The notes: generated from the letters alone by a model not told the origin. DNA of 64,000 bases from Pseudomonas sp. (GCF_050739775.1 NZ_JBOICA010000004.1:28664-92663); one strand, 5' to 3'; positions 44,674-63,360 are shown, counted from the first letter of the stretch. Made by a program: numbers and translations.

Positions 44674-45141
44674 ATGGCCGTCAAACCAATCCCCGAAGGA
44701 CAGCACAGCATCACCCCTTACCTGGGCATCAAGGATGCCGGCAAGGCCATCGAGTTCTACAAGGCCGCGTTCGGTGCGGTCGAGATGTTCCGCCTGGACA
44801 GCCCGGATGGTCGGGTCGGTCATGCGGAGCTTAAGATCGGCGATTCGTCGCTGATGCTCGCCGACCCTTGCGACACGGAGGGCGGCTTGGTCAGCAGCCA
44901 GTCGCTCGGTGGCGCAGCGGTTGGTCTGCATCTGTATGTCGATGATGTCGATGCCCGCTTTGCCCAGGCCATCAAGGCCGGTGCCACCCAGGTCCGGGCC
45001 GTGGAAAACCAGTTCTACGGTGACCGTAGCGGCACCTTGAAAGACCCGTTCGGCAATCTCTGGTTCGTCTCGTCCCATGTCGAGGACGTCTCAGTGGAAG
45101 AAATCCGCGCCCGCGCCGCCAAGTTGTTTGGCGGACAGTAA
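44674..45141 (+). CDS. VOC/glyoxalase/bleomycin-resistance family protein (PhnB-like)
   Basis: SITPYL.IKDA.KAIEFYK.AFGA, HAELKIG, QFYGDR.G..KDPFG. Confidence 0.9.
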   Translation: MAVKPIPEGQHSITPYLGIKDAGKAIEFYKAAFGAVEMFRLDSPDGRVGHAELKIGDSSLMLADPCDTEGGLVSSQSLGGAAVGLHLYVDDVDARFAQAIKAGATQVRAVENQFYGDRSGTLKDPFGNLWFVSSHVEDVSVEEIRARAAKLFGGQ

Positions 45142-45151
45142 TCCCGGTGCA

Positions 45152-45188
45152 TCCCGGTTGGCGAGCGATGGCCGCCAGCCGGGCTTTG
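45152..45188 (+). terminator. Possible weak intrinsic terminator after the VOC gene
   Basis: 11-bp stem CCCGGTTGGCG / CGCCAGCCGGG (one G-U pair), followed only by CTTTG. Confidence 0.4.
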
Positions 45189-45229
45189 CATTAAGGTGGC
45201 AGGCAAAGGAAGGTTGGCCAGGATTGTCC

Positions 45230-46423
45230 ATGAGAATCATCGAAAAAAACGCTGCGCTGGTACGCACTCTCACCCCTGCCGAAGATGAACTGTTGCGCGG
45301 TTTTGTCCAGGGCAACCTGGCAGGTCCACGCCTGCTGCAGGCCAATCAGCTGCTGCTCAAGATCCGCGCCGCCGGGCATTGGCTGGCGTGTGATTGCCAG
45401 CCGCGAGCAATGCCGATTCTCAACGTCAATCTCAATGGCAACACCGGCACTCTATTTCTCAAGAACAACCCCGGCACCGCCGAGCATGCCCCCGATTGCG
45501 CCTTCATCAAGGATGAGCGCGAAGCTGGTCACCTGGAGGATTCCGACGTCCTGCCGGCCGCCTGGTTGCCCCCCGACACGCCCTTGCGCCTGATCGGCGA
45601 TTTTCGCCGCGCCGCACCTGGCAGTGGTGCTGAGCGTAACGATGTAAGCGACAAGCGCGAACAGCATCGTTTGCTGTCATTGCTACTGACGTTGATCGAA
45701 GCCGGAGGCCTGAATGTCTACGCCAGCCACCTGAAAAAGGACCTGACTGGACAATTTGCCGAACTGCGCAGCGTCGCCAGCCGTTACCCCTTGATCGAGC
45801 GGGTGCCGGCCAGCAACTACCTGGAAACCCGCCTGGACATGAAGCACATGATGATGCTCAAGGCGCGGCTGCGTGACTCCAGCGCGTTCGGCAATCATCG
45901 TCGCTACGGTCTGATGCTCGACTGCGTCAGCCAGATCAAGGCACGCAAGGTGTACAACGAGCGCAGCGAAGACGGCTTCGATTTCCAGGGTCATCACCTG
46001 CTGTGGGGCGGCAGCAAGACGCCAGGGCCGCTGTTGGCCCTGGCAATCTACTCACCGGCCAGCGCTGGCAGCCACTTCTATGAATTGATTCATGTCGCCA
46101 GCGTCCCGGTGCTGTCGCGTGGGCAACTGTTCCCGGTATACCGCGATGAAGAGCGCGAGCCCTTGAAGATGCTCGTTTCGTTGATCGACTGGATGGCCAG
46201 CAAGGGTGTCCGGGTGCTCATGCGCCGCCCGGTCATTGGTGGTCAGGGCATGGACGCGTTGGTACTCAGCTCCGACCAGGACCGGGTGCTGTCGGTATCG
46301 TTGACCGACCAGCCGCTAGGCCCGGAGCCTGAAGGCGAAACTTTCAAGCGCTATGCCGACTTCAAGAGCATGGACACCTTTCGCAAGTACGTAGCAGGAT
46401 TCTTCATGCGCGGGCGTGAGTAA
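45230..46423 (+). CDS. Hypothetical protein, DUF1173-like with N-terminal CxC...HxxxC metal site
   Basis: Start at MRIIEK; WLACDCQP...NNPGTAEHAPDCAF. Confidence 0.55.
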   Translation: MRIIEKNAALVRTLTPAEDELLRGFVQGNLAGPRLLQANQLLLKIRAAGHWLACDCQPRAMPILNVNLNGNTGTLFLKNNPGTAEHAPDCAFIKDEREAGHLEDSDVLPAAWLPPDTPLRLIGDFRRAAPGSGAERNDVSDKREQHRLLSLLLTLIEAGGLNVYASHLKKDLTGQFAELRSVASRYPLIERVPASNYLETRLDMKHMMMLKARLRDSSAFGNHRRYGLMLDCVSQIKARKVYNERSEDGFDFQGHHLLWGGSKTPGPLLALAIYSPASAGSHFYELIHVASVPVLSRGQLFPVYRDEEREPLKMLVSLIDWMASKGVRVLMRRPVIGGQGMDALVLSSDQDRVLSVSLTDQPLGPEPEGETFKRYADFKSMDTFRKYVAGFFMRGRE

Positions 46424-46449: not shown

Positions 46450-47877
46450 TTACCACTGCCGCTTATCCGGCCGAGTCAGCCCCAGCTTCTCGATACGGTA
46501 ACGCAACATATCGCGGCTCAAGCCCAGGAGCCGCGCTGACTTGGTAACATTCCAGTCGGTACGATCAAGCATCTTGCGCACCATCTCGCGCTCCACCTCA
46601 GGCAGGCTGGTGGAAACCGGCAACTCGCCATTGCCATGGCTTTCATGAAACGCCGGCGCCGGCACGTCAAAGGGCTCATCGACCAGGCTCATGCAGACAT
46701 TGAGCTGGTGCGGGGCAATCTCCTCGCCAGGCGCGAGCAATACGGTCTGTTCGAGCATGTTGCGCAGCTCCCGAACGTTGCCCGGCCAACTGTAATTGAG
46801 CAGCAGCTCCTCGGCCTCGGGGCTGAAATAAAGGTGCGATTTACCGTAGCGTTTGCCATGCAGGGCCAAGAAGTGTCGGGCCAACAGCAGGATATCTTCG
46901 CCCCGGGCATACAACCTGGGGACCTTGATTGAAATGATGCGCAGGCGAAAGAACAAGTCTCGACGAAATTTGCCCTGTTGCACCATCTGTTCCAGATTGC
47001 AGTTGGTGGCACTGATAATGCGCAGATCGACCTTGCGCTCCTTCACCGCACCAATACGGCGAATGGTGCGGTCTTCCAGCAATTTCAGCAGTTTGGCCTG
47101 CAACAGCAGGTCCATTTCACCGATCTCGTCGAGAAACAGCGTGCCACCATCGGCCGCCTCCACCAGACCGACACGACGGTCCTTGGCATCGGTGAACGCG
47201 CCCTTCTCGTGGCCAAAGAGTTCGGCCTCCAGCAGGTTGGCCGGGATCGAGGCGCAATTGAACTCGATAAACGGCCCCTTGCTGCGCGCCCCGTCAAAAT
47301 GCAGGGCGCGGGCCACCAGTTCCTTGCCGGTGCCAGTCTCCCCTTCCACCAGCACCGGCGGCAACTCACCGCTGGACATACGCCGCTCGGCATCGAGCAA
47401 CTGCGTGAGCGTGTGCTTGAGCCCGAGCATGGCCGGTGACTCGCCGATCAAGGACTGACCTCCGGATTTTTGCGCTTCGCGCTCCTGGTAGAACGACAGC
47501 GTACGCTCCATGCGCTCGGTCGCCAGGGCCTTGTCGAGCATCAGTTTGAGTTCGGCCAGCACCACCGGTTTGGTCAGGTAGTGAAAAGCGCCCTCCTTCA
47601 TCGCCAGCACGGCATCTTCAACATTGCCGTAGCCGGTCATCATGATCACCTTGAGCTCCGGCGCACGCGCGGCCAAAGCCTTGATCAGCTCATGACCGTT
47701 CATCCCCGGCAGCGAGTTGTCGGTCAATACTGCGTCGGGTTGACACTGCTGCAGTTGCTCCAGCGCCTGCTCGGCGCTATGACAGACGGTGACCTCGAAG
47801 CCTTTACGCTCCAGATAGGTCTGGATATTTTCAGCGAGGATTTCGTCATCCTCCACCACCAGGATGCTGTGCTCCAT
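46450..47877 (-). CDS. Sigma54-dependent response regulator (NtrC/ZraR-type bEBP)
   Basis: Start at MEHSILV; receiver LTDNSLPG, Walker A GETGTGKE, GAFTDA, FLDEI, RRDLFFRL, WPGNVREL, Fis-type HTH. Confidence 0.93.
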   Translation of the reverse strand: MEHSILVVEDDEILAENIQTYLERKGFEVTVCHSAEQALEQLQQCQPDAVLTDNSLPGMNGHELIKALAARAPELKVIMMTGYGNVEDAVLAMKEGAFHYLTKPVVLAELKLMLDKALATERMERTLSFYQEREAQKSGGQSLIGESPAMLGLKHTLTQLLDAERRMSSGELPPVLVEGETGTGKELVARALHFDGARSKGPFIEFNCASIPANLLEAELFGHEKGAFTDAKDRRVGLVEAADGGTLFLDEIGEMDLLLQAKLLKLLEDRTIRRIGAVKERKVDLRIISATNCNLEQMVQQGKFRRDLFFRLRIISIKVPRLYARGEDILLLARHFLALHGKRYGKSHLYFSPEAEELLLNYSWPGNVRELRNMLEQTVLLAPGEEIAPHQLNVCMSLVDEPFDVPAPAFHESHGNGELPVSTSLPEVEREMVRKMLDRTDWNVTKSARLLGLSRDMLRYRIEKLGLTRPDKRQW

Positions 47878-49342
47878 GATCCCCTCCCGCTGCAACATTG
47901 AAATTCAGGCACACGCGGGTTCCTTCCTCTTCGCGGCTGGTCAGGCTGACCGCGCCGCCGAAACGCTCCATTATTCGTTTGACCAACACCAACCCGACAC
48001 CCAGGCCGCCCTGTTTGGTGGTGAAAAAAGGGTTGAAGACCATGCGCTCCTGTTGCTGGCTCATGCCCTTGCCGGTATCACTCAAGGTTAGCTGGACCTT
48101 GCCTTCACCGGTCAACTCAAGCACCTCCAGAGTCAGCCGGCCGCCGCCTGGCATCGCCTCGAGCGCATTGGAAAACAGGCTGTTGAGGATCTGCGTGAGC
48201 AACACCGGCTGACTCACCACCAACACCGTCGGCGGTGCACTGACCTGCAGTTGCACTTTGTTGCGCTCGGTCTGCTGGGCGAAGGCGCTGCAGGTATCTT
48301 CAATCGCCGCGATCAGGTCAACGGCTTCGGCATCGTCCTTCAACGGCCGCAACGACACCAGCAACTCACGCACCCAACGCGACATACGGTCGACCTGATC
48401 GATGATGTCGCCGATATTTTTTTGCGAACGCTCACTGGCGATTTCCTGAGCCAATTCGGCGCTGGAGCGAATGGTGGCCAGTGGATTGCGCAAACTGTGG
48501 GCCACCGCCGAGGACATTTCTCCCAGCGCGACAAAGGTTTCGCTGGCCATCAGCTTGGTCTGTTGCGTGTGCAAGAGGCTCGCAGCACGGCGCACGATCC
48601 AGAACAGGCCGAAGTAGACCAGCGCGCCACCGAGCAGGGTCGAGGTCCAGATCAGCACATAGCCGCGCTGGATGCGCCTTACCAGGTCCTGGGGTTCCTT
48701 GTACACCTCCACCATCGACAGCACCTGAGTGCCACTGTCGTCGAACATGGGAATGTAGTTCTCGATGAACAGGTACTGCGGCTCACGCTGGAGCTTCTGT
48801 TCTTCGCGGTCCTCATCGGCCTTGTGATAACTGGCCGACACTGCTACTCGCGAGTTGAACGACTCGTCGAGGTCGTCATCGCCGACAATCTTCTGGCCAA
48901 TCAACTGGGGATTGGTAGACCAGACAATGGTTCGGTCCAGGGCATAGACATTGATCAGCAGGGTGTCGGGCAGGTGTTCGACATGGTCGAGAAACTCGAT
49001 ACGCGTGGACGCCGCCAGGTCAGCACTGATCCCCGGATGCTGCTTGTCCATGCGCGGATCCAGCAATTGCGCCATGGTGGTGCCCGGCGGAATCCGCGAA
49101 TGGCGCACCTCGGCCTTGGCCATGGCCTGGATGAACTGGGCGGTGAGCATGGCATCGCGCTCGACGCTGTCATTGACCACAAAACGCGTCGAGACATAGC
49201 CCAGGCCCACTGCCACCGAGGCAATGATCAACAGGCTGACCACGGAGAACCAGCGCAGCAAGTTGAATTCGCGCATGGCTCCGTCGGTTGTCGCCCGGGA
49301 GTCGCGATCCTCATTGGCAAGATTCTGGTCCAGCTCCTGCAT
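47846..49342 (-). CDS. Membrane sensor histidine kinase 1
   Basis: Two TM segments; H-box AHSLRNPL, NALEAM, DTGKGM, FFTTK, GLGVGL. Start could be 49276. Confidence 0.9.
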   Translation of the reverse strand: MQELDQNLANEDRDSRATTDGAMREFNLLRWFSVVSLLIIASVAVGLGYVSTRFVVNDSVERDAMLTAQFIQAMAKAEVRHSRIPPGTTMAQLLDPRMDKQHPGISADLAASTRIEFLDHVEHLPDTLLINVYALDRTIVWSTNPQLIGQKIVGDDDLDESFNSRVAVSASYHKADEDREEQKLQREPQYLFIENYIPMFDDSGTQVLSMVEVYKEPQDLVRRIQRGYVLIWTSTLLGGALVYFGLFWIVRRAASLLHTQQTKLMASETFVALGEMSSAVAHSLRNPLATIRSSAELAQEIASERSQKNIGDIIDQVDRMSRWVRELLVSLRPLKDDAEAVDLIAAIEDTCSAFAQQTERNKVQLQVSAPPTVLVVSQPVLLTQILNSLFSNALEAMPGGGRLTLEVLELTGEGKVQLTLSDTGKGMSQQQERMVFNPFFTTKQGGLGVGLVLVKRIMERFGGAVSLTSREEEGTRVCLNFNVAAGGDHGAQHPGGGG

Positions 49343-49447
49343 CGAGTCTTCCTTGCGGGCTGTTTTTATCAGAATTTATAGCGCAGGCAGATTCCGGCGT
49401 TTGACATCAATACTAATAGCCTCGCACGCAGTGATAGTATTTTGCCT

Positions 49448-50961: not shown

Positions 50962-51003
50962 TTGCCCCGTTTGCTTGCCCCAATTGCCCCCAACCCTGGG
51001 GCA
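50962..51003. promoter_or_regulatory. Candidate upstream activator sequences for the bEBP
   Basis: TTGCCCC three times (50962, 50975, 50984) and TGCCCC-N7-GGGGCA (50985-51003), 75-115 bp upstream of the -24 element. Confidence 0.5.
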
Positions 51004-51077: not shown

Positions 51078-51094
51078 TTGGTATGGAAGTTGCC
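51078..51094 (+). promoter_or_regulatory. Sigma54 -24/-12 promoter
   Basis: TTGGTATGGAAGTTGCC: exact GG-N10-GC spacing, close to YTGGCACGNNNNTTGCW; 54 bp upstream of the ATG at 51149. Confidence 0.7.
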
Positions 51095-51148: not shown

Positions 51149-52495
51149 ATGCCCCGTCCAACGCCCCACCCCCTGGCTTTATTGGTCCTGGCCAGCCTGA
51201 TTCAGGCACCGGCCCAGGCTGCACTGTTTGAAGTAGATTCCGGCCCTTACCTGCCGGCCACTGGCGGATTCGCCGCCTGGTACCAGGACACTCACGGCCG
51301 GGTGCTCGACCTGTGCTTATCCAAGGCTGTCAGCTCGCGGGTGGCCGGGGCTCCCGGTGCGCCCTCGTACATGTGTGTGCTGAATCCGGCGCCTGGAGTG
51401 TTCGATGACACCCAGCCAATCAGCTTTCCCACCAACTACCCCGACGAAACCTTCTGGTTTGCCGCCAATGCGGCGATTGTCGACGTGGCCCGCGGCATCG
51501 ATTTGAGCTACGTCACCGCCGTCGAGGCGGCCTTCGCCGCCGAAGAAGTGGTCGATGGCGATCAGGTCAGCTTCGCCCGGGTTCGTATCCGTGTCGATGT
51601 ACCCACCGCAGGCACCTACATCGTCACCCACCCCTACGGTGTCGAAGTGTTCGATGTGCCGGAGGCCGGTACGCGGGCGATCAACATGACCCGCGACATC
51701 GGTATTGGTGGAAAGAAAACCTACACGGGTGCGCTCAAAGGTGATGTTGGCCCGTTCCTGCGCGGCGTCGGTGGCCCCTATACCGAGACCAACCCGCAGA
51801 GCGGCGCCAGCGAACGCTACATCGGCGATCCAAACCTCAATGAAGCGGTAACCGGCAGCCCGTTCAACACCAACTTCGTGCGCATCGAAGGGCCCAACGG
51901 CCTGGACCTGCAGACCACGCTGTTCTCGGTCTCCGGCAAACTCTCCGACGTTGTACGGCCAACCCCGGTGATTGCCCAGCGCAGCACCTACTCGCGCCGC
52001 AGCGATAACGGCGACCTGCGTGCCCAGCAGGATGTCTTTGTGCAGGCACCGCCACCACCGGGCACTGCCACCCTGGTCAGCCAGACCCCGAACCTGAGCC
52101 TCACCGAAGCCAACTCCACCGGTGCCTGGTACAGCCAGTCGGCGCTCAACCCGGCACTGCCATTGAACCTGCAAGTGACCGCCGACAACCAGTTGGCGAT
52201 CCCCAGCAGCACCCCGACCACCCTTACCCTGCCGCTGACCGACCTGATCGTCATCCAGCGTGCCGAGTTCAGCCTGGCGTCCGGACAACTGACCCTGGTC
52301 GCCTCGACCAGCGACGAAACCAGCCCTCCGGTACTCAGCGCCCACACCGCAAATGGCGCCGCCATCGGCACCCTGAGCGGTAATGGCGCAGTCAAGACGC
52401 TCACCACCGGGCTCTCGCCGATCCCGCCGGCCAAGATCACGGTGACCAGCGCCAATGGCGGTAGCGACAGCGAAGAAGTGGTGCTCGTGCCATGA
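51149..52495 (+). CDS. Secreted beta-rich protein of unrecognised family (paralogue A)
   Basis: 448 aa from MPRPTPH; Sec signal ending AQA; Cys pair; Pro/Thr/Gly-rich. Confidence 0.85.
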   Translation: MPRPTPHPLALLVLASLIQAPAQAALFEVDSGPYLPATGGFAAWYQDTHGRVLDLCLSKAVSSRVAGAPGAPSYMCVLNPAPGVFDDTQPISFPTNYPDETFWFAANAAIVDVARGIDLSYVTAVEAAFAAEEVVDGDQVSFARVRIRVDVPTAGTYIVTHPYGVEVFDVPEAGTRAINMTRDIGIGGKKTYTGALKGDVGPFLRGVGGPYTETNPQSGASERYIGDPNLNEAVTGSPFNTNFVRIEGPNGLDLQTTLFSVSGKLSDVVRPTPVIAQRSTYSRRSDNGDLRAQQDVFVQAPPPPGTATLVSQTPNLSLTEANSTGAWYSQSALNPALPLNLQVTADNQLAIPSSTPTTLTLPLTDLIVIQRAEFSLASGQLTLVASTSDETSPPVLSAHTANGAAIGTLSGNGAVKTLTTGLSPIPPAKITVTSANGGSDSEEVVLVP

Positions 52496-52530
52496 ACATC
52501 ATCACGCCACGTCCCGTAGCAGGAGGCAGC

Positions 52531-54759
52531 ATGAATAACTGGCCACGCCTGGCGCTTTGCGCAGCCGGGCTTTCCCTCTCGCTGGCCGGCACTGCCTGGG
52601 CCGGCCTCAAAGCGGTCGATCCGGGCCCCTACACCCTGGCCACCGGGCGTTACCCGATGTGGTACCAGGACCACAACGACCTGTCCTTGGAGCTGTGCCA
52701 ATCAAGAGCGGCAAGCTCGCGGGTACCAGCGTCGGTGCCACCGGCCTATATGTGCACCCTGCTGCCCGAGCCTGGCGTCTACGACGATGCCCTGCCCCTG
52801 GTGTTCCCGGATAACTGGCCACCGGAGATGTTCTGGTACCTGGCTGAAACCGCGATTCCGGCCGCGGGCAACAGCGGCTATGAACTGGACAGTTATGTCG
52901 CCGCCATCGAAGCGGCGTTCGCCAGCGAGAACCCGATCGATGGCGACCAACTGAGCTTTGCCCGTATCCGCATCCGCGTCTCGGTGCCACAGGCCGGCAC
53001 CTACGTGATCACCCACCCCTACGGCGAAGAGACCGTCAACGTCACTACCCCCGGACGGCGAGCGATCAACATCACCCGTGATGTCGGCATCGGTGCACCC
53101 GGCAATTTCAGTGGTGCACTCAATGGCGCACTCGGCCCGTACCTGCGCGGCGTCGGTGGTCCCTACACCGAGATCAACCCGGACACGGGCGCCAGCGAAA
53201 CCTATATCGGTGACCCGAATCTCACTGAGCAGGTCACCGGTAGCCCGTTCAACACCAACTTCGTGCGTATCCAAGGCCCGGCCGGGACCATCCAGACCAA
53301 CCTCTTCACCGTTTCCGGCAAAGTCCTCGACCCCCGTGAGCAGACACCTGCGGAACTGGAGCGTGCCAGCTATCGGCGTACAGCCGACGGTACCCGGATA
53401 GAGGTGTTCGCCAATGCACCGAACAACGCCACCCTGTGCTTCCGTGAAACGCTGGCTCTGGTCCCCGGCACTCCGCCTTCGCCTTGCCAGTTCAACCTGC
53501 TGGCCGACAATAACGGACTGTTCTTTGCCAATCACCTGAGCACTGGCGCGCCGCCACCTGTGATCGTGGTCACGGCCACCGACCCGAGCGGTGCTACCCG
53601 CCCCACCGCGCTGTCGCGCAAGCTCAGCGATGTGGTCAAGATCACCACCGCGCGCTACGACTGGGCCACCAAACGCCTGCGGATCGAAGCCAGCTCCAGT
53701 GACGAGGTGCAGGTGCCCGACCTGGTCGCCCAGGGCTATGGCCGCCTGTCCAAGTCCGGCCCCCTGCAAAGCCTGACAGTCAATGATCTGGTACAGCCTC
53801 CGGCCAGTGTCACGATCAAGTCTGCCGCAGGTGGCGGTGACACCGAAGCGGTGGTGGTGGTCGGCAATGCGCCGGTCGAAACCGCTAATCAGGCGCCGGT
53901 GGCTCAAGCGGACGTCGGTAGCACCCCCTTCAACCAACCGTTGAGCGTCAACCTGCTGGCCAACGACAGCGACCCAGATGGCGATGTGCCGCTGGCGATC
54001 ACCGACCTTACCCAGCCGGCCACAGGTCAAGGCAGCGTTACTCTGACCAGCAGTACCGCGGTGCTCTACACACCACCGCCGGTGATCAGCGCACCACTGA
54101 CCGCGACCTTCACCTACCGGGCCCAGGACAGCAAAGGGCTGAAGTCGGCGGTCACCACGGTGACGATCAACGTGGCCCCGAACCAGGCGCCAACGGCTGT
54201 CAACGACACCGCCACAACCCAAGGTGTCGCCCTGCCGATCAACGTCCTGACCAACGATACCGACCCGGACGGCAACCTGCCCCTGACGATCGCCAGCGTG
54301 ACTCAACCCGCCCTCGGACGCGGCACGGTCAGCTCCAATGGCAGTCAAGTCACCTACACCCCACCGGCCGTGATCCTTACGCCTTTCACCACCACCTTTA
54401 CCTACATCGCCCGGGACAGCGCAGGCGCCCTGTCGGCACCGGCCACGGTCACTGTGCAGGTCTCGCCACGGCCGCCGGCAGAGAACTTCACCGTCACCGC
54501 CGCGACCGTCACGGCACGCGCCGGCAACCGCTTTACCTGGGACATCTCCGGCACCTCGTCAGCGATCCTGCTCAACGCCGTTACCGTGCAGGTCACTACC
54601 CCGACCGGTTTGGTCACCCTGGGCACTACCCCTGTACCGCTGACCGGACGCTGGCGGCTGACAGTCACCAGTACCACGGTGATCCCGAGCGCAGCACCAA
54701 CGGCGACCGTCACCACCAGCCAGGGCACCGTCCGTACCGTGCCGGTTACCGTGCAGTAG
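52531..54759 (+). CDS. Secreted protein, paralogue B, with two cadherin-like/Big_9 Ig repeats
   Basis: 742 aa from MNNWPRL with RBS AGGAGG; same N-terminal domain as paralogue A; repeats NQAP.A..D...N.L.ND.DPDG..PL...TQP...YTPP...FTY.A.DS.G at about 53887 and 54181. Confidence 0.88.
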   Translation: MNNWPRLALCAAGLSLSLAGTAWAGLKAVDPGPYTLATGRYPMWYQDHNDLSLELCQSRAASSRVPASVPPAYMCTLLPEPGVYDDALPLVFPDNWPPEMFWYLAETAIPAAGNSGYELDSYVAAIEAAFASENPIDGDQLSFARIRIRVSVPQAGTYVITHPYGEETVNVTTPGRRAINITRDVGIGAPGNFSGALNGALGPYLRGVGGPYTEINPDTGASETYIGDPNLTEQVTGSPFNTNFVRIQGPAGTIQTNLFTVSGKVLDPREQTPAELERASYRRTADGTRIEVFANAPNNATLCFRETLALVPGTPPSPCQFNLLADNNGLFFANHLSTGAPPPVIVVTATDPSGATRPTALSRKLSDVVKITTARYDWATKRLRIEASSSDEVQVPDLVAQGYGRLSKSGPLQSLTVNDLVQPPASVTIKSAAGGGDTEAVVVVGNAPVETANQAPVAQADVGSTPFNQPLSVNLLANDSDPDGDVPLAITDLTQPATGQGSVTLTSSTAVLYTPPPVISAPLTATFTYRAQDSKGLKSAVTTVTINVAPNQAPTAVNDTATTQGVALPINVLTNDTDPDGNLPLTIASVTQPALGRGTVSSNGSQVTYTPPAVILTPFTTTFTYIARDSAGALSAPATVTVQVSPRPPAENFTVTAATVTARAGNRFTWDISGTSSAILLNAVTVQVTTPTGLVTLGTTPVPLTGRWRLTVTSTTVIPSAAPTATVTTSQGTVRTVPVTVQ

Positions 54760-54777
54760 AACGCAGGAGACATGACC

Positions 54778-55251
54778 ATGGCGCGCCTGACCACCTTGCT
54801 GCTTTGCCTGACCCTGAGCGCTCAGGCCGCCGTGGCCAACGACTTGATGGATAACGCCGACCTTGGTCCCGGTGGGGATCTGGACGAGCCGCTGTCGATG
54901 CAACCACTGCCAGTCAGCGCCGGGCAGCAGGCGCAGGTCGAGCAGAACGGGCAAGCCAACCGCGCCGCCATCGGCCAGGACGGTCAGGCCCTGCTGGGCC
55001 GCATCGTTCAGTCCGGTGGAGCGCAAGAGGCGTACATCCTGCAACAAGGTAACGACCTGATGGCCACCATCCACCAACAAGGCTATGGCAATAGCGCCGC
55101 GATCGCTCAGAGCGGCAGCAACAACCGCGCGAACATCGAGCAATACGGCAACAGCAACAGCGCCAGCATCGTCCAGGCCGGCACCGGGCTGCAAAGCTCG
55201 GTGATCCAGGCCGGCAACGGTCAGCGCATACAGGTCAACCAATACCGTTAA
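54778..55251 (+). CDS. csgB: Curlin minor subunit (CsgB-like)
   Basis: Signal peptide; about 5 Q-x-G-x-x-N-x-A-x-I-x-Q repeats; ends IQVNQYR. RBS spacing favours ATG 54778 over 54772. Confidence 0.8.
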   Translation: MARLTTLLLCLTLSAQAAVANDLMDNADLGPGGDLDEPLSMQPLPVSAGQQAQVEQNGQANRAAIGQDGQALLGRIVQSGGAQEAYILQQGNDLMATIHQQGYGNSAAIAQSGSNNRANIEQYGNSNSASIVQAGTGLQSSVIQAGNGQRIQVNQYR

Positions 55252-55268: not shown

Positions 55269-56714
55269 ATGTTCAAGCTCGCTCCCTTAAGCGCCGCCAT
55301 TGTTCTGTGCCTTGCTGGCCAGGCGATGGCTGACGAAAGCCAGTCGACTCAAAACCAGTCCGGTACCGAGAACATCGCTGAGGTCAAACAGACGACCGCC
55401 GCGTTAAGCATCACCACCCAGGACCAGGTCGGCCTGGGCAACAACCACGCCGCCAAGCAGGAAGGTGGCAACAGCTACATTCAGCAAAGCACGGACGGTG
55501 ACTACAACGCCGGCTACGCCGAGCAACTGTTCGAGTATGGCAGCCAGATCAACCAGCAATCGGCCGGTTCCCTGAACAACACCCATGCCAGCCAGTCCCT
55601 GGGTACCGAAAACCAGGCCGAGCAAACCCAGGAAGGCAGCGGCAACTTCTCGTTCGTCTACCAGGACAGCCAGACTGGCAGCACGGGCACCACTATGCAG
55701 TACGGTAACGATAACCGCGCCTTTGTCGAGCAACTGAACAACACCGCCGCCAACAACACCCTGAGCATCCAGGACGGTACCGACAACTACAGCGCCGCCG
55801 AACACATCAACCATAACGACGGCCAGATCGGTATCTATCAGACCGGTAACAGTAACTGGGCCTATGGCGACCAGCGCGAAGGCCAGGCGGGCACCCTCAC
55901 CATTACCCAGAACGGTACCGGCAACTCCACCGAAGTCTGGCAGGACACCCAGGCTGACAGCCACGCCTCGGTAACCCAATTTGGCCTGAGCAACGAAGGC
56001 GTCATCGACCAGAGTTTTGGTGTAAACAACAACGCCAACCTCTTCCAGAGCGGCAACCTCAATGCCATCTATGCCGACCAGTACGAGTCGATGGGGTCGC
56101 TATCGACGCTGGTGCAGACCGGCGACAGCAACGTCAGCTTCACCTATCAGACCGGCGACAGCCATGTCCTGGAGGTCTCCTCCAACGGCACTGGCAACAA
56201 GGTTCTGGCCAGCAACTGGAAAGGCGAGAAAGCCGGTGGCCAGTTCGGCACCAGCCAGACTGCAGCGATCAACCAGAGCGGTACCGGCAACAGCGCCAAC
56301 CTGACCCAGAAGGACGTTGCGCAACTGGCTCGGTTGAATCAAAGCGGTACCGGCAACACCGCCGAACTGACCCAGGTCGACAGCAACAACGAGTTGTACT
56401 TCGAACAGAACGGCACTGACAACCTGCTGATCGCAGATCAACGCGGCACCAACAACTACGCCACAGGTTCCAGTACAGGCGAGAGCAACAGCATCAAGCT
56501 GGACCAGTCCGGCAGTGGCAACCAGAGCTCCACCTGGCAGCTGTATGGCGACAACAACAGCGCCAACATCAAGCAGACCGACGGCATCAACGTCTCCTAC
56601 GTGACCCAGGGTGGTTCCTACAACCAGGCAATAGTCGACCAGAGCGGCGCGAGCATGATCTCAACCATCGAGCAGTATGGTTCCGGCAACCAGGCCACTG
56701 TACTGCAGCAGTAG
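55269..56714 (+). CDS. csgA: Curlin major subunit (long CsgA-like, about 20 repeats)
   Basis: Signal peptide MFKLAPLSAAIVLCLAGQAMA, then about 20 units of 22-24 aa with Q-x-G-x-x-N...Q; Asn/Gln/Ser/Gly-rich. Confidence 0.85.
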   Translation: MFKLAPLSAAIVLCLAGQAMADESQSTQNQSGTENIAEVKQTTAALSITTQDQVGLGNNHAAKQEGGNSYIQQSTDGDYNAGYAEQLFEYGSQINQQSAGSLNNTHASQSLGTENQAEQTQEGSGNFSFVYQDSQTGSTGTTMQYGNDNRAFVEQLNNTAANNTLSIQDGTDNYSAAEHINHNDGQIGIYQTGNSNWAYGDQREGQAGTLTITQNGTGNSTEVWQDTQADSHASVTQFGLSNEGVIDQSFGVNNNANLFQSGNLNAIYADQYESMGSLSTLVQTGDSNVSFTYQTGDSHVLEVSSNGTGNKVLASNWKGEKAGGQFGTSQTAAINQSGTGNSANLTQKDVAQLARLNQSGTGNTAELTQVDSNNELYFEQNGTDNLLIADQRGTNNYATGSSTGESNSIKLDQSGSGNQSSTWQLYGDNNSANIKQTDGINVSYVTQGGSYNQAIVDQSGASMISTIEQYGSGNQATVLQQ

Positions 56715-56756: not shown

Positions 56757-56796
56757 GACCGCAGTCACCGATGGGGGTGACTGCGGTCCCTTTTTC
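56757..56796 (+). terminator. Intrinsic terminator of the curli operon
   Basis: 13-bp perfect stem GACCGCAGTCACC / GGTGACTGCGGTC, then CCTTTTTC. Confidence 0.88.
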
Positions 56797-56901
56797 TGTC
56801 TCCTACCACCTGCCGACCCACTCCACCCCGCCAGAACCACCGATTCAGAGCCTTCGTTCCCGATCCGTTAATATTTTATTTTCCGCCTGAACGCTTTACA
56901 T

Positions 56902-59471: not shown

Positions 59472-60083
59472 TTGACCTCTGTGTTGATAGTTGACGACCA
59501 CTCCACCGTCCGCTTTGCCGTGCGCATGTTGCTCGAACGCGAGCACTTCACCATCGTCGGTGAGGCCAACGACGGTAAAGTTGCAGTACAGTTGGCCCGC
59601 GAGCTGCGCCCTGATGTGGTGATACTCGACATCGGTCTACCAGATATTGACGGCCTGAATGTGTTGAAGCGCTTGCAACTGCTCGAACCTGCGCCGCGCG
59701 TCATGGTGTTGACCGGTCAACCCGCCAATTTGTTTGCCCGGCGCTGCCTTGACGCTGGCGCCTCGGCATTCATGCGCAAGGACGAAGACCTTGAGGCCTT
59801 GGTGAGCGTGCTGAAAGCCATGATCAAGGGCTACTCGACCTTTCCTGACCTGTCGACACGCCACGGCCCGCTGCTTAACGAGCAGCAGCGCCTGGAAAAA
59901 CTCTCCGACCAGGAAATTGCGGTACTGCGGCTGCTGGTAAACGGGCAGTCGAATAACGACATCGCCGAGTGCATGCACCTGAGTGCCAAAACTGTCAGCA
60001 CCTACAAGACCCGGATCCTGGAAAAGCTGGAACTGCGTTCATTTGTGGAGCTGGTCGATCTATCGCGACGTCATTCGATCTGA
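59472..60083 (+). CDS. NarL/LuxR-type response regulator (BvgA/EvgA-like)
   Basis: TTG start with RBS AAGGAG; VILDIGLP; LSDQE...SNNDIA..MHLSAKTVSTYKTRILEKL. Confidence 0.9.
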   Translation: MTSVLIVDDHSTVRFAVRMLLEREHFTIVGEANDGKVAVQLARELRPDVVILDIGLPDIDGLNVLKRLQLLEPAPRVMVLTGQPANLFARRCLDAGASAFMRKDEDLEALVSVLKAMIKGYSTFPDLSTRHGPLLNEQQRLEKLSDQEIAVLRLLVNGQSNNDIAECMHLSAKTVSTYKTRILEKLELRSFVELVDLSRRHSI

Positions 60084-60090
60084 GCCTGTC

Positions 60091-63000
60091 ATGAACCTGC
60101 TCAAGGTCTCGCTGCTGGGTTGCCTGCTAAGCCTGCAGGCACTCCCCGCACGCGCCGTAGAAGTAGCTGAGCCTCGCCAGCTACTGGCCCGTTCGATCAG
60201 CAGCACGGCTCTGAAACTGTCAGCCGAAGACAGCAATTGGCTCAAGCACAAGCAGCACTTGCTGCTCGGCACAAGCGTGCCGGATTACCCTCCGTTCGAT
60301 ATCAATACCAGCAAAAGCGACTATGAAGGCCTGACCGCCGACTATGCCGGACTGATCAGTGAACTGTTAGGCATCCCGATCAAGGTCCAACGTTTTGCCG
60401 ACCGGGCCCAGGCCATTGCTGCGCTGCATGCCGGGCAGATCGATCTGCTGGGCAGTGCCAATGCCTTCGAGGCCGCCGACGCGCAACTGGTGCTTAGCCA
60501 CCCTTATACCGACGACCAAGCGGTGATTGTGATCGGCTCGGGTAAAACCCTGGGGGCCAACGACAAGCTCGAAGGGCTACGTCTGGCCATGGTCGATCAT
60601 TATCTGCCCGAAGCGGCGGTTACTGCACTTTACCCGCAAGCCAAGCTTCGGCTGTACAGCTCCAACGTGGCGGGCCTCTCGGCCGTGTCACTGGGACAAG
60701 CCGACGCCTTTCTCGGCGATGCCGTCAGCAGTGATTATCTGATCACTCGTGTCTACCTGGGCAGTGTGCAGATCGATCACTTCATCAAGAACTTGCGAGG
60801 TACCTTTGGCTTTGCCGTGTCCCGCAACAACACCACCTTGTTACGCCTGGTCGATCAAGCGCTGGACTCCATCGGTGACAATGACCGTTTGAATATCCTG
60901 CGACGCTGGACCAGCGGTAGCACCCGGGTGCTGCTCAGTCGCAGCAGCTTGAGCCTGAGCGCCGCTGAGCATACCTGGATCACACAACACCCGCGGGTCC
61001 GGGTGGCGATCAACAAACACTTTGCGCCCTTGAGCTTTTACGATGAGGGTCATCAGTTTCGCGGCATTACCGCCGATGTCCTTGATCAGATCAGTCTGCG
61101 TACCGGTCTTAAGTTCGACGTTCATGTCGTCGACTCGATGGTGGAAATCATCAAGCAGGTCGAACAAGGCAAAACCGATATCGCCGGTATGCTGTCCCCC
61201 ACTCCGGAACGCGAAGTCACCCTGCGCTTCTCCCGCCCCTACCTGATCACCCCACGCGTTCTGGTCACCCGCACCGATAACCATACCCTGCACAGTACCG
61301 AGCAACTCAAGGACAAGCGCCTGGCCGTGATACGCGGTTTTTTCCCGTTCGAGCTCCAACGACAGGTGCGTTTTCCTCGCACCACGCTGGTACAAGTCGA
61401 TAATCCACTGTTACTGATGGAGTCTGTGGCGCAGGGCAAGGCCGATGCGGCCTTGAGCTCACAGATCAATGCCGCCTATTTTGTCAACCGCATGTTCAAG
61501 GACCGACTGCAGATCGCCTCGATCTTTGGCGACCAACCCGGCATTGCCGCCTTTGCCGTGGCCCGTGACGCCACACTGTTGCACTCGATCCTCGACAAGG
61601 CCCTGCTCAGTATCCCCCCCGACGAGATGACCGAACTGGCTGGCCGCTGGCGAACCAATGCGTTGATCAGCGACAGTCTCTGGTACAACTACCGCGGGCT
61701 TATCCTGCAGATCCTGCTGGGCGCCGGTGTGCTGATCGCCGCGGTGATCATCTGGAACCGCTACCTGCGCATACTGATCCGCCAACGCAGCGAAGCCGAG
61801 CAGGCCCTGCAACTTGAACTGGGTTTCAGCAAGCGCCTGCTCGAAGAGCTGCGCCTGGCCAAAGAGCAGGCCGAAGACGCCAGTCGTGCCAAAAGTACCT
61901 TCCTGGCAACCATGAGCCATGAAATCCGTACGCCGATGAATGCCGTCATCGGCCTGCTCGAACTGGCCATCAAGGACGCTGAACAGGGACGCGCCGACCG
62001 CGCCTCCTTGCAGGTGGCGTTTGAATCGGCCAATGGCATGCTGGAGCTGCTCGGCGACGTTCTGGACATCGTCCGTATCGAATCCGGGCACATGACCCTG
62101 GCGCCACAGCCTACGGACCTCAATGCCCTGATCTCCGCCACCGTCCGCGTGTTCGAAGGCAACGCCAGGCTCAAGGGGCTGAGGCTGGAAACCGATTTAC
62201 AGCCCACTGAACACCTGGTGGCTGTCGATTCGCTGCGCCTGAAACAGATCCTCTCTAACCTGGTGAGCAATGCGATCAAGTTCACCGACCAGGGTAGTGT
62301 CAAGGTCAGCCTTCAACTCAATGACAGCCAGGCAGGGCAACTACAGGTCCTGCTCGGGGTCGAAGACAGCGGCATCGGTATCAGCGCCCAAGACCAGCAA
62401 CGACTGTTCCAGCACTTTGCCCAGGTCGGCACGCAAACGACCCGCCAGGGTACTGGCCTGGGCCTGATAATCAGCCGCACCCTGTGTGAACTCATGGGCG
62501 GTCAGTTGAACCTGCTGAGCGCCCCGCAACAGGGCACACGTGTCCATGTCACGCTGACCTTGCCCCTGGCCGAACCTGTACAGCACAACGACAGCAGGCC
62601 AACGGCGACAGACAACGCCATGCCGGCGCAGTCCATTCTGGTGGTGGACGACTACCCCGCCAACCTGATGCTGCTCGAACGCCAGCTGACGGTACTTGGC
62701 CATCGGGTCAGCCAGGCCAGCGACGGACAGCAGGCCCTGGCGCTGTGGCAACAGAACGACTTTGACACGGTCATCACCGATTGCTACATGCCCGGCATGG
62801 ACGGGCATCAGCTGGCCCGCCAGATCCGTGCCCACGAGCGCCGACTGCAGCGGCCTGCCTGCCTGATTCTCGGCCTGACCGCCAATGCCCAGGCCCAAGA
62901 GCGCGAGCGTTGCCTGGCCAGCGGCATGAACGATTGCCTGTTCAAGCCGATCGGGCTGGCTGAACTGCGTCGCCATCTGCAGGCCACGAACACTCAGACA

Positions 63001-63360
63001 GCGCTGGCACAAACCGCCGAAGAAGATTTACACGCCAGCGGCTTCGACATAGACAACCTCCAGTTCCTGACGTTGGGAGACTCCAGCCTGATCCATCGGT
63101 TGAAAGGCGAACTGGCCCGCAGCAACCATGAAGACCTCAACGCCCTGCGCGACCTTGGCCCGCAGCCTTCGCGCGATACCCTGCGCGCCCTGGTCCACCG
63201 AATCAAGGGTGGGGCCAAAATGATCAAGGCGCGCGGCGTGGTGCGCAATTGCGAAGCCCTGGAGCAGGCCAGTCTCGGCGATGCCTCGAACGACCAGCTC
63301 AAGGCCTTGCTGGATACCTTGGAGCAGAGCCTGCTGACCCTGGAAAAACAACTGACCTAA
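60091..63360 (+). CDS. Unorthodox hybrid sensor kinase with two periplasmic Venus-flytrap domains (BvgS/EvgS-like)
   Basis: Start at MNLLKV; two PBP domains (DYPPF; HFAPLSF), TM, SHEIRTPMN, NAIKFT, REC TDCYMPG, HPt HRIKGGA. Confidence 0.9.
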   Translation: MNLLKVSLLGCLLSLQALPARAVEVAEPRQLLARSISSTALKLSAEDSNWLKHKQHLLLGTSVPDYPPFDINTSKSDYEGLTADYAGLISELLGIPIKVQRFADRAQAIAALHAGQIDLLGSANAFEAADAQLVLSHPYTDDQAVIVIGSGKTLGANDKLEGLRLAMVDHYLPEAAVTALYPQAKLRLYSSNVAGLSAVSLGQADAFLGDAVSSDYLITRVYLGSVQIDHFIKNLRGTFGFAVSRNNTTLLRLVDQALDSIGDNDRLNILRRWTSGSTRVLLSRSSLSLSAAEHTWITQHPRVRVAINKHFAPLSFYDEGHQFRGITADVLDQISLRTGLKFDVHVVDSMVEIIKQVEQGKTDIAGMLSPTPEREVTLRFSRPYLITPRVLVTRTDNHTLHSTEQLKDKRLAVIRGFFPFELQRQVRFPRTTLVQVDNPLLLMESVAQGKADAALSSQINAAYFVNRMFKDRLQIASIFGDQPGIAAFAVARDATLLHSILDKALLSIPPDEMTELAGRWRTNALISDSLWYNYRGLILQILLGAGVLIAAVIIWNRYLRILIRQRSEAEQALQLELGFSKRLLEELRLAKEQAEDASRAKSTFLATMSHEIRTPMNAVIGLLELAIKDAEQGRADRASLQVAFESANGMLELLGDVLDIVRIESGHMTLAPQPTDLNALISATVRVFEGNARLKGLRLETDLQPTEHLVAVDSLRLKQILSNLVSNAIKFTDQGSVKVSLQLNDSQAGQLQVLLGVEDSGIGISAQDQQRLFQHFAQVGTQTTRQGTGLGLIISRTLCELMGGQLNLLSAPQQGTRVHVTLTLPLAEPVQHNDSRPTATDNAMPAQSILVVDDYPANLMLLERQLTVLGHRVSQASDGQQALALWQQNDFDTVITDCYMPGMDGHQLARQIRAHERRLQRPACLILGLTANAQAQERERCLASGMNDCLFKPIGLAELRRHLQATNTQTALAQTAEEDLHASGFDIDNLQFLTLGDSSLIHRLKGELARSNHEDLNALRDLGPQPSRDTLRALVHRIKGGAKMIKARGVVRNCEALEQASLGDASNDQLKALLDTLEQSLLTLEKQLT

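What the first reader, a model, noticed from the sequence alone, without database searches (positions are those of the whole stretch)
51149..54759. Two tandem paralogous secreted proteins sharing an unrecognised ~420-aa region
Seen: both carry GPY..ATG....WYQD....L.LC...SSRV.......YMC.L.P.PGV.DD..P..FP.N.P.E.FW, then SFAR.RIRV.VP.AGTY..THPYG and GP.LRGVGGPYTE.NP..GASE.YIGDPNL.E.VTGSPFNTNFVRI.GP. The Cys pair is conserved (likely a disulfide). B adds two cadherin-like Ig repeats with the DxDGD Ca-binding signature and a Thr/Val-rich terminal beta domain. Neither has a lipobox, C-terminal TM anchor, PEP-CTERM or RTX/T1SS repeats. Inference: candidate curli accessories (tip adhesin, fibre cap/anchor or periplasmic chaperone) or a hetero-oligomeric second filament.
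Basis: partly seen in the sequence, partly recalled or inferred. Interest (0 to 1): 0.78.

Follow-up and report, generated by a model that had tools for sequence, protein, structure and literature searches.

The report
Secreted protein pair of manganese-oxidation island
The two neighbouring secreted proteins are real paralogues of a large, unnamed family with no known fold. In Pseudomonas they are inherited with the manganese-oxidising gene set (MnxG oxidase, its sigma-54 regulators, Xcm secretion genes) as well as with curli genes, so they are probably matrix or surface helpers of manganese biomineralisation, not curli-specific accessories.

Summary
A (51149-52495, 448 aa) and B (most likely 52531-54759, 742 aa) are 47% identical over about 440 aa (E 2e-117). 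Both have Sec signal peptides and a conserved Cys pair. B adds two cadherin-like repeats and a terminal beta domain.

The shared part is a 250-aa N-domain followed by two Ig-like domains. The N-domain has no Pfam, NCBIfam, PDB-sequence or Foldseek relative, although its AlphaFold model is confident (pLDDT 95.6). The family has about 1,700 clusters at 50% identity and reaches at least Chloroflexota.

A-B-csgB-csgA form one operon behind a sigma-54 promoter, which is conserved in 73 of 75 Pseudomonas species. The operon lies divergent from a MnxS1/MnxS2/MnxR-type two-component system.

- Among 151 Pseudomonas species genomes, 50 carry the pair, 49 of those also carry MnxG and CsgF, and no genome has MnxG without the pair.
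- A-B persist without csgBA in 8 species, in Metapseudomonas resinovorans and in second copies that abut mnxG.
- Two distant lineages place the pair beside MnxG- or McoA-like oxidases.
- Published P. resinovorans proteomics shows two adjacent 'Glycoprotein gp2' proteins, probably orthologues, rising together with the Mn oxidases.

The curli-accessory reading is only partly supported. The biochemical role is inferred.

The parts
46450..47898 (-). MnxR-type sigma-54-dependent response regulator (bEBP)
   Evidence: Pfam Response_reg + Sigma54_activat + HTH_8. It lies in the same place as mnxR in relatives that have mcoA+SCO1 between the two kinases (review PMC13689576).
47846..49342 (-). MnxS1-type sensor kinase
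   Evidence: Only HisKA + HATPase_c are found. It is 59% identical to the neighbouring kinase, as published for MnxS1/MnxS2 (PMC13689576).
49448..50911 (-). MnxS2-type sensor kinase, divergent from gene A
   Evidence: A kinase of this type lies divergently next to A in 54 of 72 informative species loci.
50985..51003 (.). Palindrome TGCCCCCAACCCTGGGGCA (core CCCCA-N4-TGGGG), candidate enhancer site for the bEBP
   Evidence: Seen in the sequence. The same core recurs upstream of A in Pseudomonas, Metapseudomonas and, in weaker form, Oceanisphaera. Not tested statistically.
51079..51094 (+). Sigma-54 promoter TGGTAT-N5-TTGC, 55 nt before the ATG of A
   Evidence: The motif TGGYAY-N5-TTGC lies at -57 to -75 in 73 of 75 species loci. 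It is also present in Oceanisphaera and M. resinovorans.
51149..52495 (+). Protein A, 448 aa. Signal peptide residues 1-24 (AQA|AL), N-domain about 28-275, two Ig-like beta-sandwich domains about 276-448.
   Evidence: AlphaFold2 pLDDT 91.5, pTM 0.83.
51230..51973 (+). N-domain of A (family-defining, about 248 aa, all-beta, Cys56-Cys76)
   Evidence: AlphaFold2 pLDDT 95.6, pTM 0.91. Foldseek best hit: PDB E 0.04, BFVD E 0.12. Invariant residues D47, E100, E126, R144, R146, D183.
52531..54759 (+). Protein B, 742 aa from ATG 52531 (755 aa if from 52492). Order of parts: signal peptide, N-domain, two Ig-like domains, two cadherin-like repeats, terminal beta domain.
53875..54471 (+). Two Big_9/Cadherin_4/Cadherin_5 repeats of B, carrying NDSDPDGD and NDTDPDGN
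   Evidence: Pfam E 6e-27, 3e-20 and 5e-17. NCBIfam tandem-95 repeat, below its cut-off.
54772..55251 (+). CsgB-like minor curlin (159 aa)
   Evidence: Curlin_rpt E 3e-21. Hits NCBIfam CsgB and CsgA below their cut-offs.
55269..56714 (+). CsgA-like major curlin (481 aa, many repeats)
   Evidence: Curlin_rpt E 1.5e-29, six stretches.
56757..56798 (+). Intrinsic terminator (13-bp stem, 9 GC pairs, T-run) ending the operon

Best explanation
A and B are an old, conserved short and long pair of Sec-exported, all-beta proteins. They belong to an unnamed family defined by a 250-aa N-domain with no known fold relative, followed by two Ig-like domains.

In Pseudomonas they are part of the Mn(II)-oxidation gene island. 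They are transcribed, together with the curlin genes csgB and csgA, from a sigma-54 promoter next to the MnxS1/MnxS2/MnxR two-component system. They are inherited together with the MnxG oxidase, the Xcm type II secretion genes and csgEFG. These points are shown.

Inferred mechanism: when MnxR is activated, the cell makes the oxidases, curli fibres and the A/B pair together. A and B fold and form their disulfide in the periplasm. They leave the cell through the Xcm secretin rather than through CsgG. Outside, they act as non-catalytic matrix or surface components. B would be tied to exopolysaccharide or fibres by its calcium-dependent cadherin-like repeats. The shared N-domain, with its invariant Asp/Glu/Arg cluster, would bind the oxidase, a metal ion or the growing Mn oxide, so that oxidase and mineral stay on the curli/EPS matrix.
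For: Operon and promoter:
- The four genes are tightly packed, with one sigma-54 site and one terminator.
- The sigma-54 motif is conserved in 73 of 75 species.

Identity of the regulators:
- The two kinases are 59% identical and have only HisKA/HATPase_c.
- In relatives, mcoA-like and SCO1 genes lie between the two kinases. This matches the published description of mnxS1S2R (PMC13689576).
- mnxG in this genome also has a sigma-54 site.

Co-inheritance in 151 Pseudomonas species genomes:
- The pair is in 50, MnxG in 49 and CsgF in 52.
- 49 genomes share all three, and no genome has MnxG without the pair.
- One genome holds the whole island in about 37 kb.

Link to the oxidase without curli:
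- M. resinovorans.
- The G485 second pair (L099), directly divergent from an mnxG paralogue with no csgBA, and the same pair-mnxG adjacency in G545.
- Eight species have lost csgBA at this place but kept A-B.

Distant lineages:
- L104 has A, B and then an MnxG-like gene (54% identity over 938 aa).
- L088 has a MauG-like gene, A, B' and then, further on, a McoA-like gene (48% identity over 885 aa).

Experiment in the literature:
- In P. resinovorans MOB-513, the adjacent PRES513_05618 and PRES513_05617, both named 'Glycoprotein gp2', rise 4.9 and 4.4 in a hyper-oxidising mutant together with the multicopper oxidases. They fall in the non-oxidising algR and pilC mutants (PMC13631088).
- 'Glycoprotein gp2' is the UniRef name of family members.

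Pair conservation:
- A-type and B-type N-domains form separate, well-supported clades across Pseudomonas, Metapseudomonas and Oceanisphaera.
Against: - No direct test of function, export route or MnxR dependence exists.
- The co-occurrence largely reflects one physically linked island, so it is not many independent events.
- Curli genes co-occur almost as well (49 of 50).
- Seven of the non-Pseudomonas-type contexts show neither a multicopper oxidase nor a curlin gene within 10 kb. The family therefore has a more general role.
- Orthology of the MOB-513 'gp2' proteins rests on their name, their adjacency and the species, not on sequence.
- No His/Cys/Met metal site typical of copper proteins is conserved.
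- No published transposon screen for loss of Mn oxidation that I read reports these genes.
Confidence: 0.5

Rival explanations
1. Curli accessories. A and B would be specific partners of the CsgA/CsgB fibre (tip adhesin, cap, anchor or chaperone). Their link to Mn-oxidation genes would follow only from curli being part of the same island.
For: - They share an operon with csgB and csgA here, in 69 of 77 species loci and in Oceanisphaera.
- 49 of the 50 pair-bearing genomes also have CsgF.
Against: - A-B are kept where csgBA are missing: eight species, M. resinovorans, and the G485 second pair next to mnxG.
- Three genomes have CsgF but no pair.
- There is no curlin gene near distant family members.
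- There is no similarity to CsgC, CsgE, CsgF or CsgH models.
Confidence: 0.2
2. General lectin-like or adhesin matrix proteins, like the cadherin-like lectin RapA2. The N-domain would bind a common surface polymer and the pair would serve biofilm cohesion. There would be no particular tie to Mn oxidation beyond being switched on in the same biofilm programme.
For: - B carries two cadherin-like repeats.
- Family members combine the N-domain with PKD, CBM96, Big_2, SdrD_B and chitobiase C-terminal domains, and with different cell-surface anchors.
- Many contexts lack oxidases.
- The authors of PMC13631088 read the 'gp2' proteins as biofilm proteins.
Against: - In 151 Pseudomonas genomes, MnxG never occurs without the pair.
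- MnxG- or McoA-like genes neighbour the pair again in two distant lineages.
- The gene is directly divergent from mnxS/mnxR or from mnxG.
Confidence: 0.2
3. The N-domain is an enzyme or metal-handling module. It could be a glycan-active enzyme that remodels the matrix, or a Mn(II)/Mn(III)- or Ca-binding module that feeds or relieves the oxidase.
For: - Invariant D47, E100, E126, R144, R146 and D183, with near-invariant Y, Q and N residues, across 60-88 diverse members.
- Co-occurrence with carbohydrate-binding modules in long relatives.
Against: - No relative among known enzyme folds by sequence or structure.
- The arrangement (N-domain plus Ig stalk plus anchor-like end) is typical of adhesins.
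Confidence: 0.1

Closest known systems
Curli accessory proteins CsgC, CsgE, CsgF and CsgH (Dueholm et al. 2012, PMC3521004)
   Same: Encoded next to csgB and csgA. Exported by Sec. CsgH set a precedent for a lineage-specific extra gene beside csgAB.
   Different: No sequence relation. A and B are 3-7 times larger and multi-domain. They are kept without csgBA in several genomes, and their family is widespread without curli. The real csgE, csgF and csgG of this genome lie on another contig beside the Xcm secretion genes.
PRES513_05617 and PRES513_05618, 'Glycoprotein gp2', of Pseudomonas resinovorans MOB-513 (PMC13631088)
   Same: Probably the orthologous pair. They are two adjacent genes with the same database name as family members. 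A sequenced M. resinovorans strain (not MOB-513 itself) has exactly one A-B pair next to mnxS/mnxR and mnxG. Their abundance follows Mn-oxidising capacity.
   Different: Only proteomic abundance was reported. The authors file them as biofilm proteins by analogy with RapA2. There has been no genetics, no family analysis and no link to curli or to the island.
RapA2-type cadherin-like (CHDL) calcium-dependent lectins of Rhizobium (Vozza 2016, as cited in PMC13631088)
   Same: B has two cadherin-like repeats with DxDxD-type calcium motifs. Both are secreted matrix proteins.
   Different: These repeats are only a C-terminal add-on of B. A has none, and the family-defining N-domain is unrelated to them.
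Accessory genes of the Pseudomonas mnxG and mcoA operons (SCO1/SenC, cytochrome c, beta-propeller) and the Xcm secretion pathway (PMC13689576). Also Bacillus MnxE/MnxF subunits (own knowledge).
   Same: Non-oxidase genes that travel with Mn-oxidising multicopper oxidases and are under sigma-54 control.
   Different: A and B are not in the mnxG or mcoA operon as published and are not mentioned in the 2026 review, which does not contain the word curli. They have no homology to those accessory proteins.

Membership tests
Curli (Csg) system accessory protein | Homology to a known Csg accessory family (CsgC, CsgE, CsgF, CsgG, CsgH) | tested here: not met
   A has no Pfam or NCBIfam hit. B hits only Big_9 and cadherin-like families.
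Curli (Csg) system accessory protein | Encoded in an operon with curlin subunit genes | tested here: met
   A-B-csgB-csgA have gaps of 35, 12 and 17 nt, one promoter and one terminator. The same order holds in 69 of 77 species loci.
Curli (Csg) system accessory protein | Occurs only together with curlin genes | tested here: not met
   Eight species loci, M. resinovorans and the G485 second pair next to mnxG lack csgBA after B. Distant members have no curlin gene nearby.
MnxS1S2R / sigma-54 Mn(II)-oxidation regulon of Pseudomonas | Sigma-54 promoter upstream | tested here: met
   TGGTATGGAAGTTGC at 51079-51093, conserved in 73 of 75 species.
MnxS1S2R / sigma-54 Mn(II)-oxidation regulon of Pseudomonas | Genomic co-inheritance with mnxG and physical linkage to mnxS/mnxR | tested here: met
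   49 of the 50 pair-bearing genomes have MnxG, and none of the 101 pair-less genomes does. The kinase is divergently adjacent in 54 of 72 loci.
MnxS1S2R / sigma-54 Mn(II)-oxidation regulon of Pseudomonas | Transcription depends on MnxR and RpoN, and responds to Mn(II) | not testable with these tools
The only support is indirect: proteomics in P. resinovorans.
MnxS1S2R / sigma-54 Mn(II)-oxidation regulon of Pseudomonas | Loss of the gene changes Mn(II) oxidation | not testable with these tools
   No mutant is reported in the papers read.
Bacterial cadherin-like / Big_9 adhesins | Cadherin-like repeats above the Pfam cut-off | tested here: met
   Met for B: Big_9 94.8 bits against a cut-off of 23.6. 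Not met for A: 0 families.
Type II secretion (Xcm) substrate | Sec signal peptide, a folded periplasmic intermediate, and co-occurrence with the secretion genes | tested here: inconclusive
   Signal peptides and the conserved Cys pair are seen in the sequence. Xcm genes lie in the same island. Dependence of export on Xcm is untested.

The most novel reading that the evidence does not exclude
The short and long pair is a previously unrecognised, non-catalytic partner of Mn(II)-oxidising multicopper oxidases (MnxG and McoA types), found in several phyla. It would be exported by the Xcm pathway. Pseudomonas 'curli' would then be primarily a mineralisation scaffold: MnxR switches on fibres, the A/B pair and the oxidases together, and A/B tether oxidase and nascent Mn oxide to the fibres through a new metal- or mineral-binding fold.
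Probability: 0.25. Interest if true: 0.8.

Novelty: new variant of a known kind. Interest (0 to 1): 0.62.

Why it matters
How Mn-oxidising pseudomonads keep their oxidases and the oxide mineral on the cell surface is an open question. So is the purpose of Pseudomonas curli. This locus ties both to one sigma-54 switch. It also points to two abundant secreted proteins of an unnamed family (about 1,700 clusters, no known fold) as the missing structural parts. The 2026 review of Pseudomonas Mn oxidation mentions neither curli nor these genes. The idea can be tested directly with deletions and reporters in the laboratory strains P. putida GB-1 and KT2440. The N-domain is a good target for structure determination and for a new Pfam entry.

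Tried and rejected
Searches that found nothing:
- Pfam, NCBIfam and PDB-sequence searches of A, and of a 12-member profile. The lenient Pfam scan gave only CBM_35 at E 0.046 in 2 of 12 members, which I treat as noise.
- Foldseek of the whole model gave only generic tandem-Ig matches (TM at most 0.23).
- Foldseek of the N-domain alone found nothing in PDB or BFVD.
- Searches of papers by locus tags found no work on these genes.

Readings considered and dropped:
- 'Glycoprotein gp2' as a sign of viral origin. I rejected it as a name passed on by automatic annotation (inference).
- A lipobox in B ('LALC'). Rejected because position -1 is Leu and the likely start is 52531.

Searches that were limited or failed:
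- An even sample of 400 Pseudomonadota genomes gave 0 hits outside the window's own genome, so broad sampling could not show distribution.
- The first related-loci run failed because the alignment was too diverse.
- The genome contigs and metagenome scans returned mostly Pseudomonas.
- A strict search for the sigma-54 motif upstream of distant family members found none.

- The look-up of sequencing runs.
- The fetch from genomes.
- The genome search.

Because of these closures I could not do three things: check expression, read the mnxG promoter region more widely, or test MnxG presence in Oceanisphaera and in the L093 genome.
Full report
**1. What is there**

The window comes from a Pseudomonas of the putida group. 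The nearest proteins are from Pseudomonas sp. NUPR-001, UM16 and P. vranovensis, at 90-92% identity.

Gene A (51149-52495, 448 aa) and gene B are both open. B runs to 54759 and is listed from 52492. The ATG at 52531 has an AGGAGG 5 nt upstream. It gives 742 aa, like the 743-745-aa homologues, so it is the likelier start.

A and B are 47% identical over 440 aa (E 2e-117). Both begin with a Sec-type signal peptide. B adds two Big_9/cadherin-like repeats with NDSDPDGD and NDTDPDGN, and then a terminal beta domain.

**2. The family**

- Known families: A has no hit in Pfam, NCBIfam or PDB sequences, either alone or as a profile.
- Size: a full HMMER scan of 1.84 billion cluster representatives finds 1,689 clusters at E up to 0.001 and 395 at E up to 1e-30.
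- Architecture in relatives: the N-terminal 250 aa also occur inside large proteins with PKD, CBM96, Big_13, SdrD_B or chitobiase-C domains, and with varied C-terminal anchors.
- Reach: one named member is from an Anaerolineae MAG.
- Models: AlphaFold2 with a 60-row alignment gives pLDDT 91.5 for A, all-beta. The N-domain alone, with 88 rows, gives pLDDT 95.6 and pTM 0.91.
- Fold searches: Foldseek of the whole model finds only generic tandem-Ig chains with low TM. The N-domain finds nothing in PDB (best E 0.04) or BFVD (best E 0.12).
- Conclusion: the shared region is an N-domain without a known relative, followed by two Ig-like domains. Invariant residues are D47, E100, E126, R144, R146 and D183. 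The AlphaFold database of cellular proteins was not available.

**3. The operon and its switch**

- Operon: downstream lie a CsgB-like and a 481-aa CsgA-like curlin, after gaps of 12 and 17 nt. A strong terminator follows.
- Promoter: 55 nt upstream of A lies TGGTAT-N5-TTGC. On its own it is not unusual in the window. However, the motif sits at -57 to -75 in 73 of 75 Pseudomonas species loci, and also in Oceanisphaera and Metapseudomonas.
- Regulators: divergent from A are two sensor kinases and a sigma-54 activator. The kinases are 59% identical and have no PAS or HAMP domain.
- Identity of the regulators: in near relatives a multicopper oxidase and a SCO1/SenC-cytochrome c gene lie between the two kinases. 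A 2026 review describes this layout for mnxS1-SCO1-mcoA-mnxS2 of Pseudomonas sp. MS-1. The review also describes MnxS1/MnxS2 as 59% identical, and MnxR as the sigma-54 activator needed for Mn(II) oxidation (PMC13689576). I therefore read the module as MnxS1S2R. Orthology to the GB-1 genes is inferred from these features, not from direct alignment.

**4. The rest of the island**

- In this genome: csgG, csgF and csgE are on another contig, directly beside an MSHA-like type II secretion cluster with pseudopilins, secretin, PilN/O-like genes and a T2SSE ATPase. About 10 kb further on lies a 1,976-aa MnxG-like oxidase with its own sigma-54 motif.
- In KT2440: this corresponds to PP_3472-PP_3490, where xcmX (PP_3475) is the Mn-oxidase export gene and the region is annotated as curli biogenesis.
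- Compact form: in one Pseudomonas genome (G442) everything lies within about 37 kb. The order is mnxR-mnxS, then divergently A-B-csgB-csgA, then csgG-F-E-xcm and on to T2SSE, then two SCO1 genes, then mnxG.
- Outside Pseudomonas: Oceanisphaera sp. IT1-181 has A-B-csgB-csgA followed by csgGFE-xcm.

**5. Co-inheritance**

The counts below come from 151 Pseudomonas species genomes, searched with the same sample three times.

| Feature | Genomes |
|---|---|
| N-domain pair (always tandem; once as pseudogene pieces) | 50 |
| MnxG-like (E up to 1e-100) | 49 |
| CsgF | 52 |
| All three together | 49 |
| Pair only (G430, still next to mnxR-mnxS1-SCO1-mnxS2) | 1 |
| CsgF only | 3 |
| MnxG without the pair | 0 |

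These counts largely reflect one linked island, so they are not independent events. An even sample of 400 Pseudomonadota genomes had no member outside the window's own genome.

**6. Which partner is kept when the island breaks**

- After B, csgB+csgA are present in 69 of 77 informative loci and absent in 8. In one of those 8 that was inspected (L046), unrelated genes follow B.
- M. resinovorans has an MnxG-like oxidase, SLT, T2SSG, T2SSF, a response regulator, the sigma-54 regulator and a kinase, then divergently A-B, with no csgBA.
- A second A'/B' pair lies directly divergent from an mnxG paralogue in G485, with no curlin gene after it, and G545 shows the same pair-mnxG adjacency. A further second pair in G403 (L100) has neither an oxidase nor a curlin hit in the stretch read.
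- In two lineages only 45-50% identical to A, the pair is followed by an MnxG-like gene (L104), or lies between a MauG-like haem enzyme and a McoA-like oxidase (L088).
- Seven other distant contexts show neither oxidase nor curlin within 10 kb. The family's basic role must therefore be more general.

**7. The pair itself**

Tandem short and long copies recur in the window, L088, L089, L091, L092, L093, L099, L100, L102, L104, L108, L159 and the P0272 contig.

In a maximum-likelihood tree of N-domains, the A-type copies form one clade (100/99) and the B-type copies another (99/97). Each clade spans Pseudomonas, Metapseudomonas, Oceanisphaera and L159. In L104, L102 and L091 the two copies group by locus. 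An old duplication has thus been kept as a pair, and similar pairs arose or were homogenised elsewhere. This fits a two-part (heteromeric) function but does not prove one.

**8. Experimental hint**

In P. resinovorans MOB-513 the adjacent proteins PRES513_05618 and PRES513_05617, both named 'Glycoprotein gp2', were among the few proteins raised (4.90 and 4.36) in a hyper-oxidising mutant. The multicopper oxidases and MopA-like peroxidases rose with them. Both proteins were lowered in the non-oxidising algR and pilC mutants (PMC13631088).

'Glycoprotein gp2' is the UniRef name of several family-A members. A sequenced M. resinovorans strain (not MOB-513 itself) has one A-B pair. Orthology is likely, but I could not check it by sequence, because no supplements are held.

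**9. Reading**

Shown:
- A real paralogous pair of an unnamed family.
- A sigma-54 operon shared with the curlin genes.
- Membership of the Mn-oxidation/Xcm/curli island.

Inferred:
- Control by MnxR.
- Export by Xcm rather than CsgG. The proteins are folded and disulfide-bearing, and the CsgG channel is narrow (established knowledge of curli secretion).
- A structural role holding oxidase or oxide on the curli/EPS matrix.

Rival readings are a general lectin-like adhesin and an enzyme or metal-handling module.

**10. Novelty**

The csgAB and csgEFG clusters of P. putida are known (PMC3521004, PMC3056050, bioRxiv 10.1101/2020.05.17.100628). So are the Mn-oxidation genes (PMC13689576).

I found no paper that joins the two or describes these two proteins beyond the proteomic table. 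Earlier AI notes of this scan on another genome reached a similar reading for a short and long pair beside Mn-type oxidases. I treat these as leads, and they are only partly re-tested here, on L088 and L104.

Noticed in passing
window 49343-49447 (between the two kinases); own genome C53 around 13.8 kb: The two MnxS-type kinases are adjacent here. In 34 of 55 related loci more than 3 kb lies between them (a mcoA-like oxidase plus SCO1/SenC-cytochrome c), and in 11 loci a 1-3 kb piece does. This genome has a 1,145-aa Cu-oxidase ORF on another contig, which may be the displaced mcoA.
   Followed up: partly
window 50985-51003: Palindrome TGCCCCCAACCCTGGGGCA (core CCCCA-N4-TGGGG), about 80-95 nt upstream of the sigma-54 site. 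The core recurs upstream of A in many Pseudomonas, in M. resinovorans and, in weaker form, in Oceanisphaera. Similar words lie upstream of mnxG in G442. It is a candidate MnxR binding site, not tested statistically.
   Followed up: partly
own genome C23:24988-33896 (L003:8988-17896): csgG-csgF-csgE directly abut an MSHA-like Xcm type II secretion cluster. The same junction is seen in G442, in Oceanisphaera and in many metagenome loci. The export genes for curli and for the Mn oxidase therefore form one block.
   Followed up: partly
window 45077-46423: A 448-aa ORF without any Pfam or NCBIfam hit lies next to the MnxR-type regulator. It is conserved at that place in near relatives, at 84-96% identity.
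   Followed up: no
G465:C1:4397852-4399816: In one Pseudomonas species genome both N-domain genes are broken into several frame pieces, while MnxG and CsgF are intact. This is a natural knock-out worth phenotyping.
   Followed up: no
L088:6886-9780: In a distant metagenome lineage, a 964-aa MauG-like di-haem peroxidase with thrombospondin type 3 repeats lies directly before the pair. Several TSP_3 proteins and a McoA-like oxidase follow.
   Followed up: partly
window 40566-42806 and 59983-63360: A GGDEF-EAL protein (DibA-like) and a large hybrid histidine kinase flank the region. They are possible c-di-GMP and phosphorelay inputs, and were seen only as NCBIfam hits.
   Followed up: no
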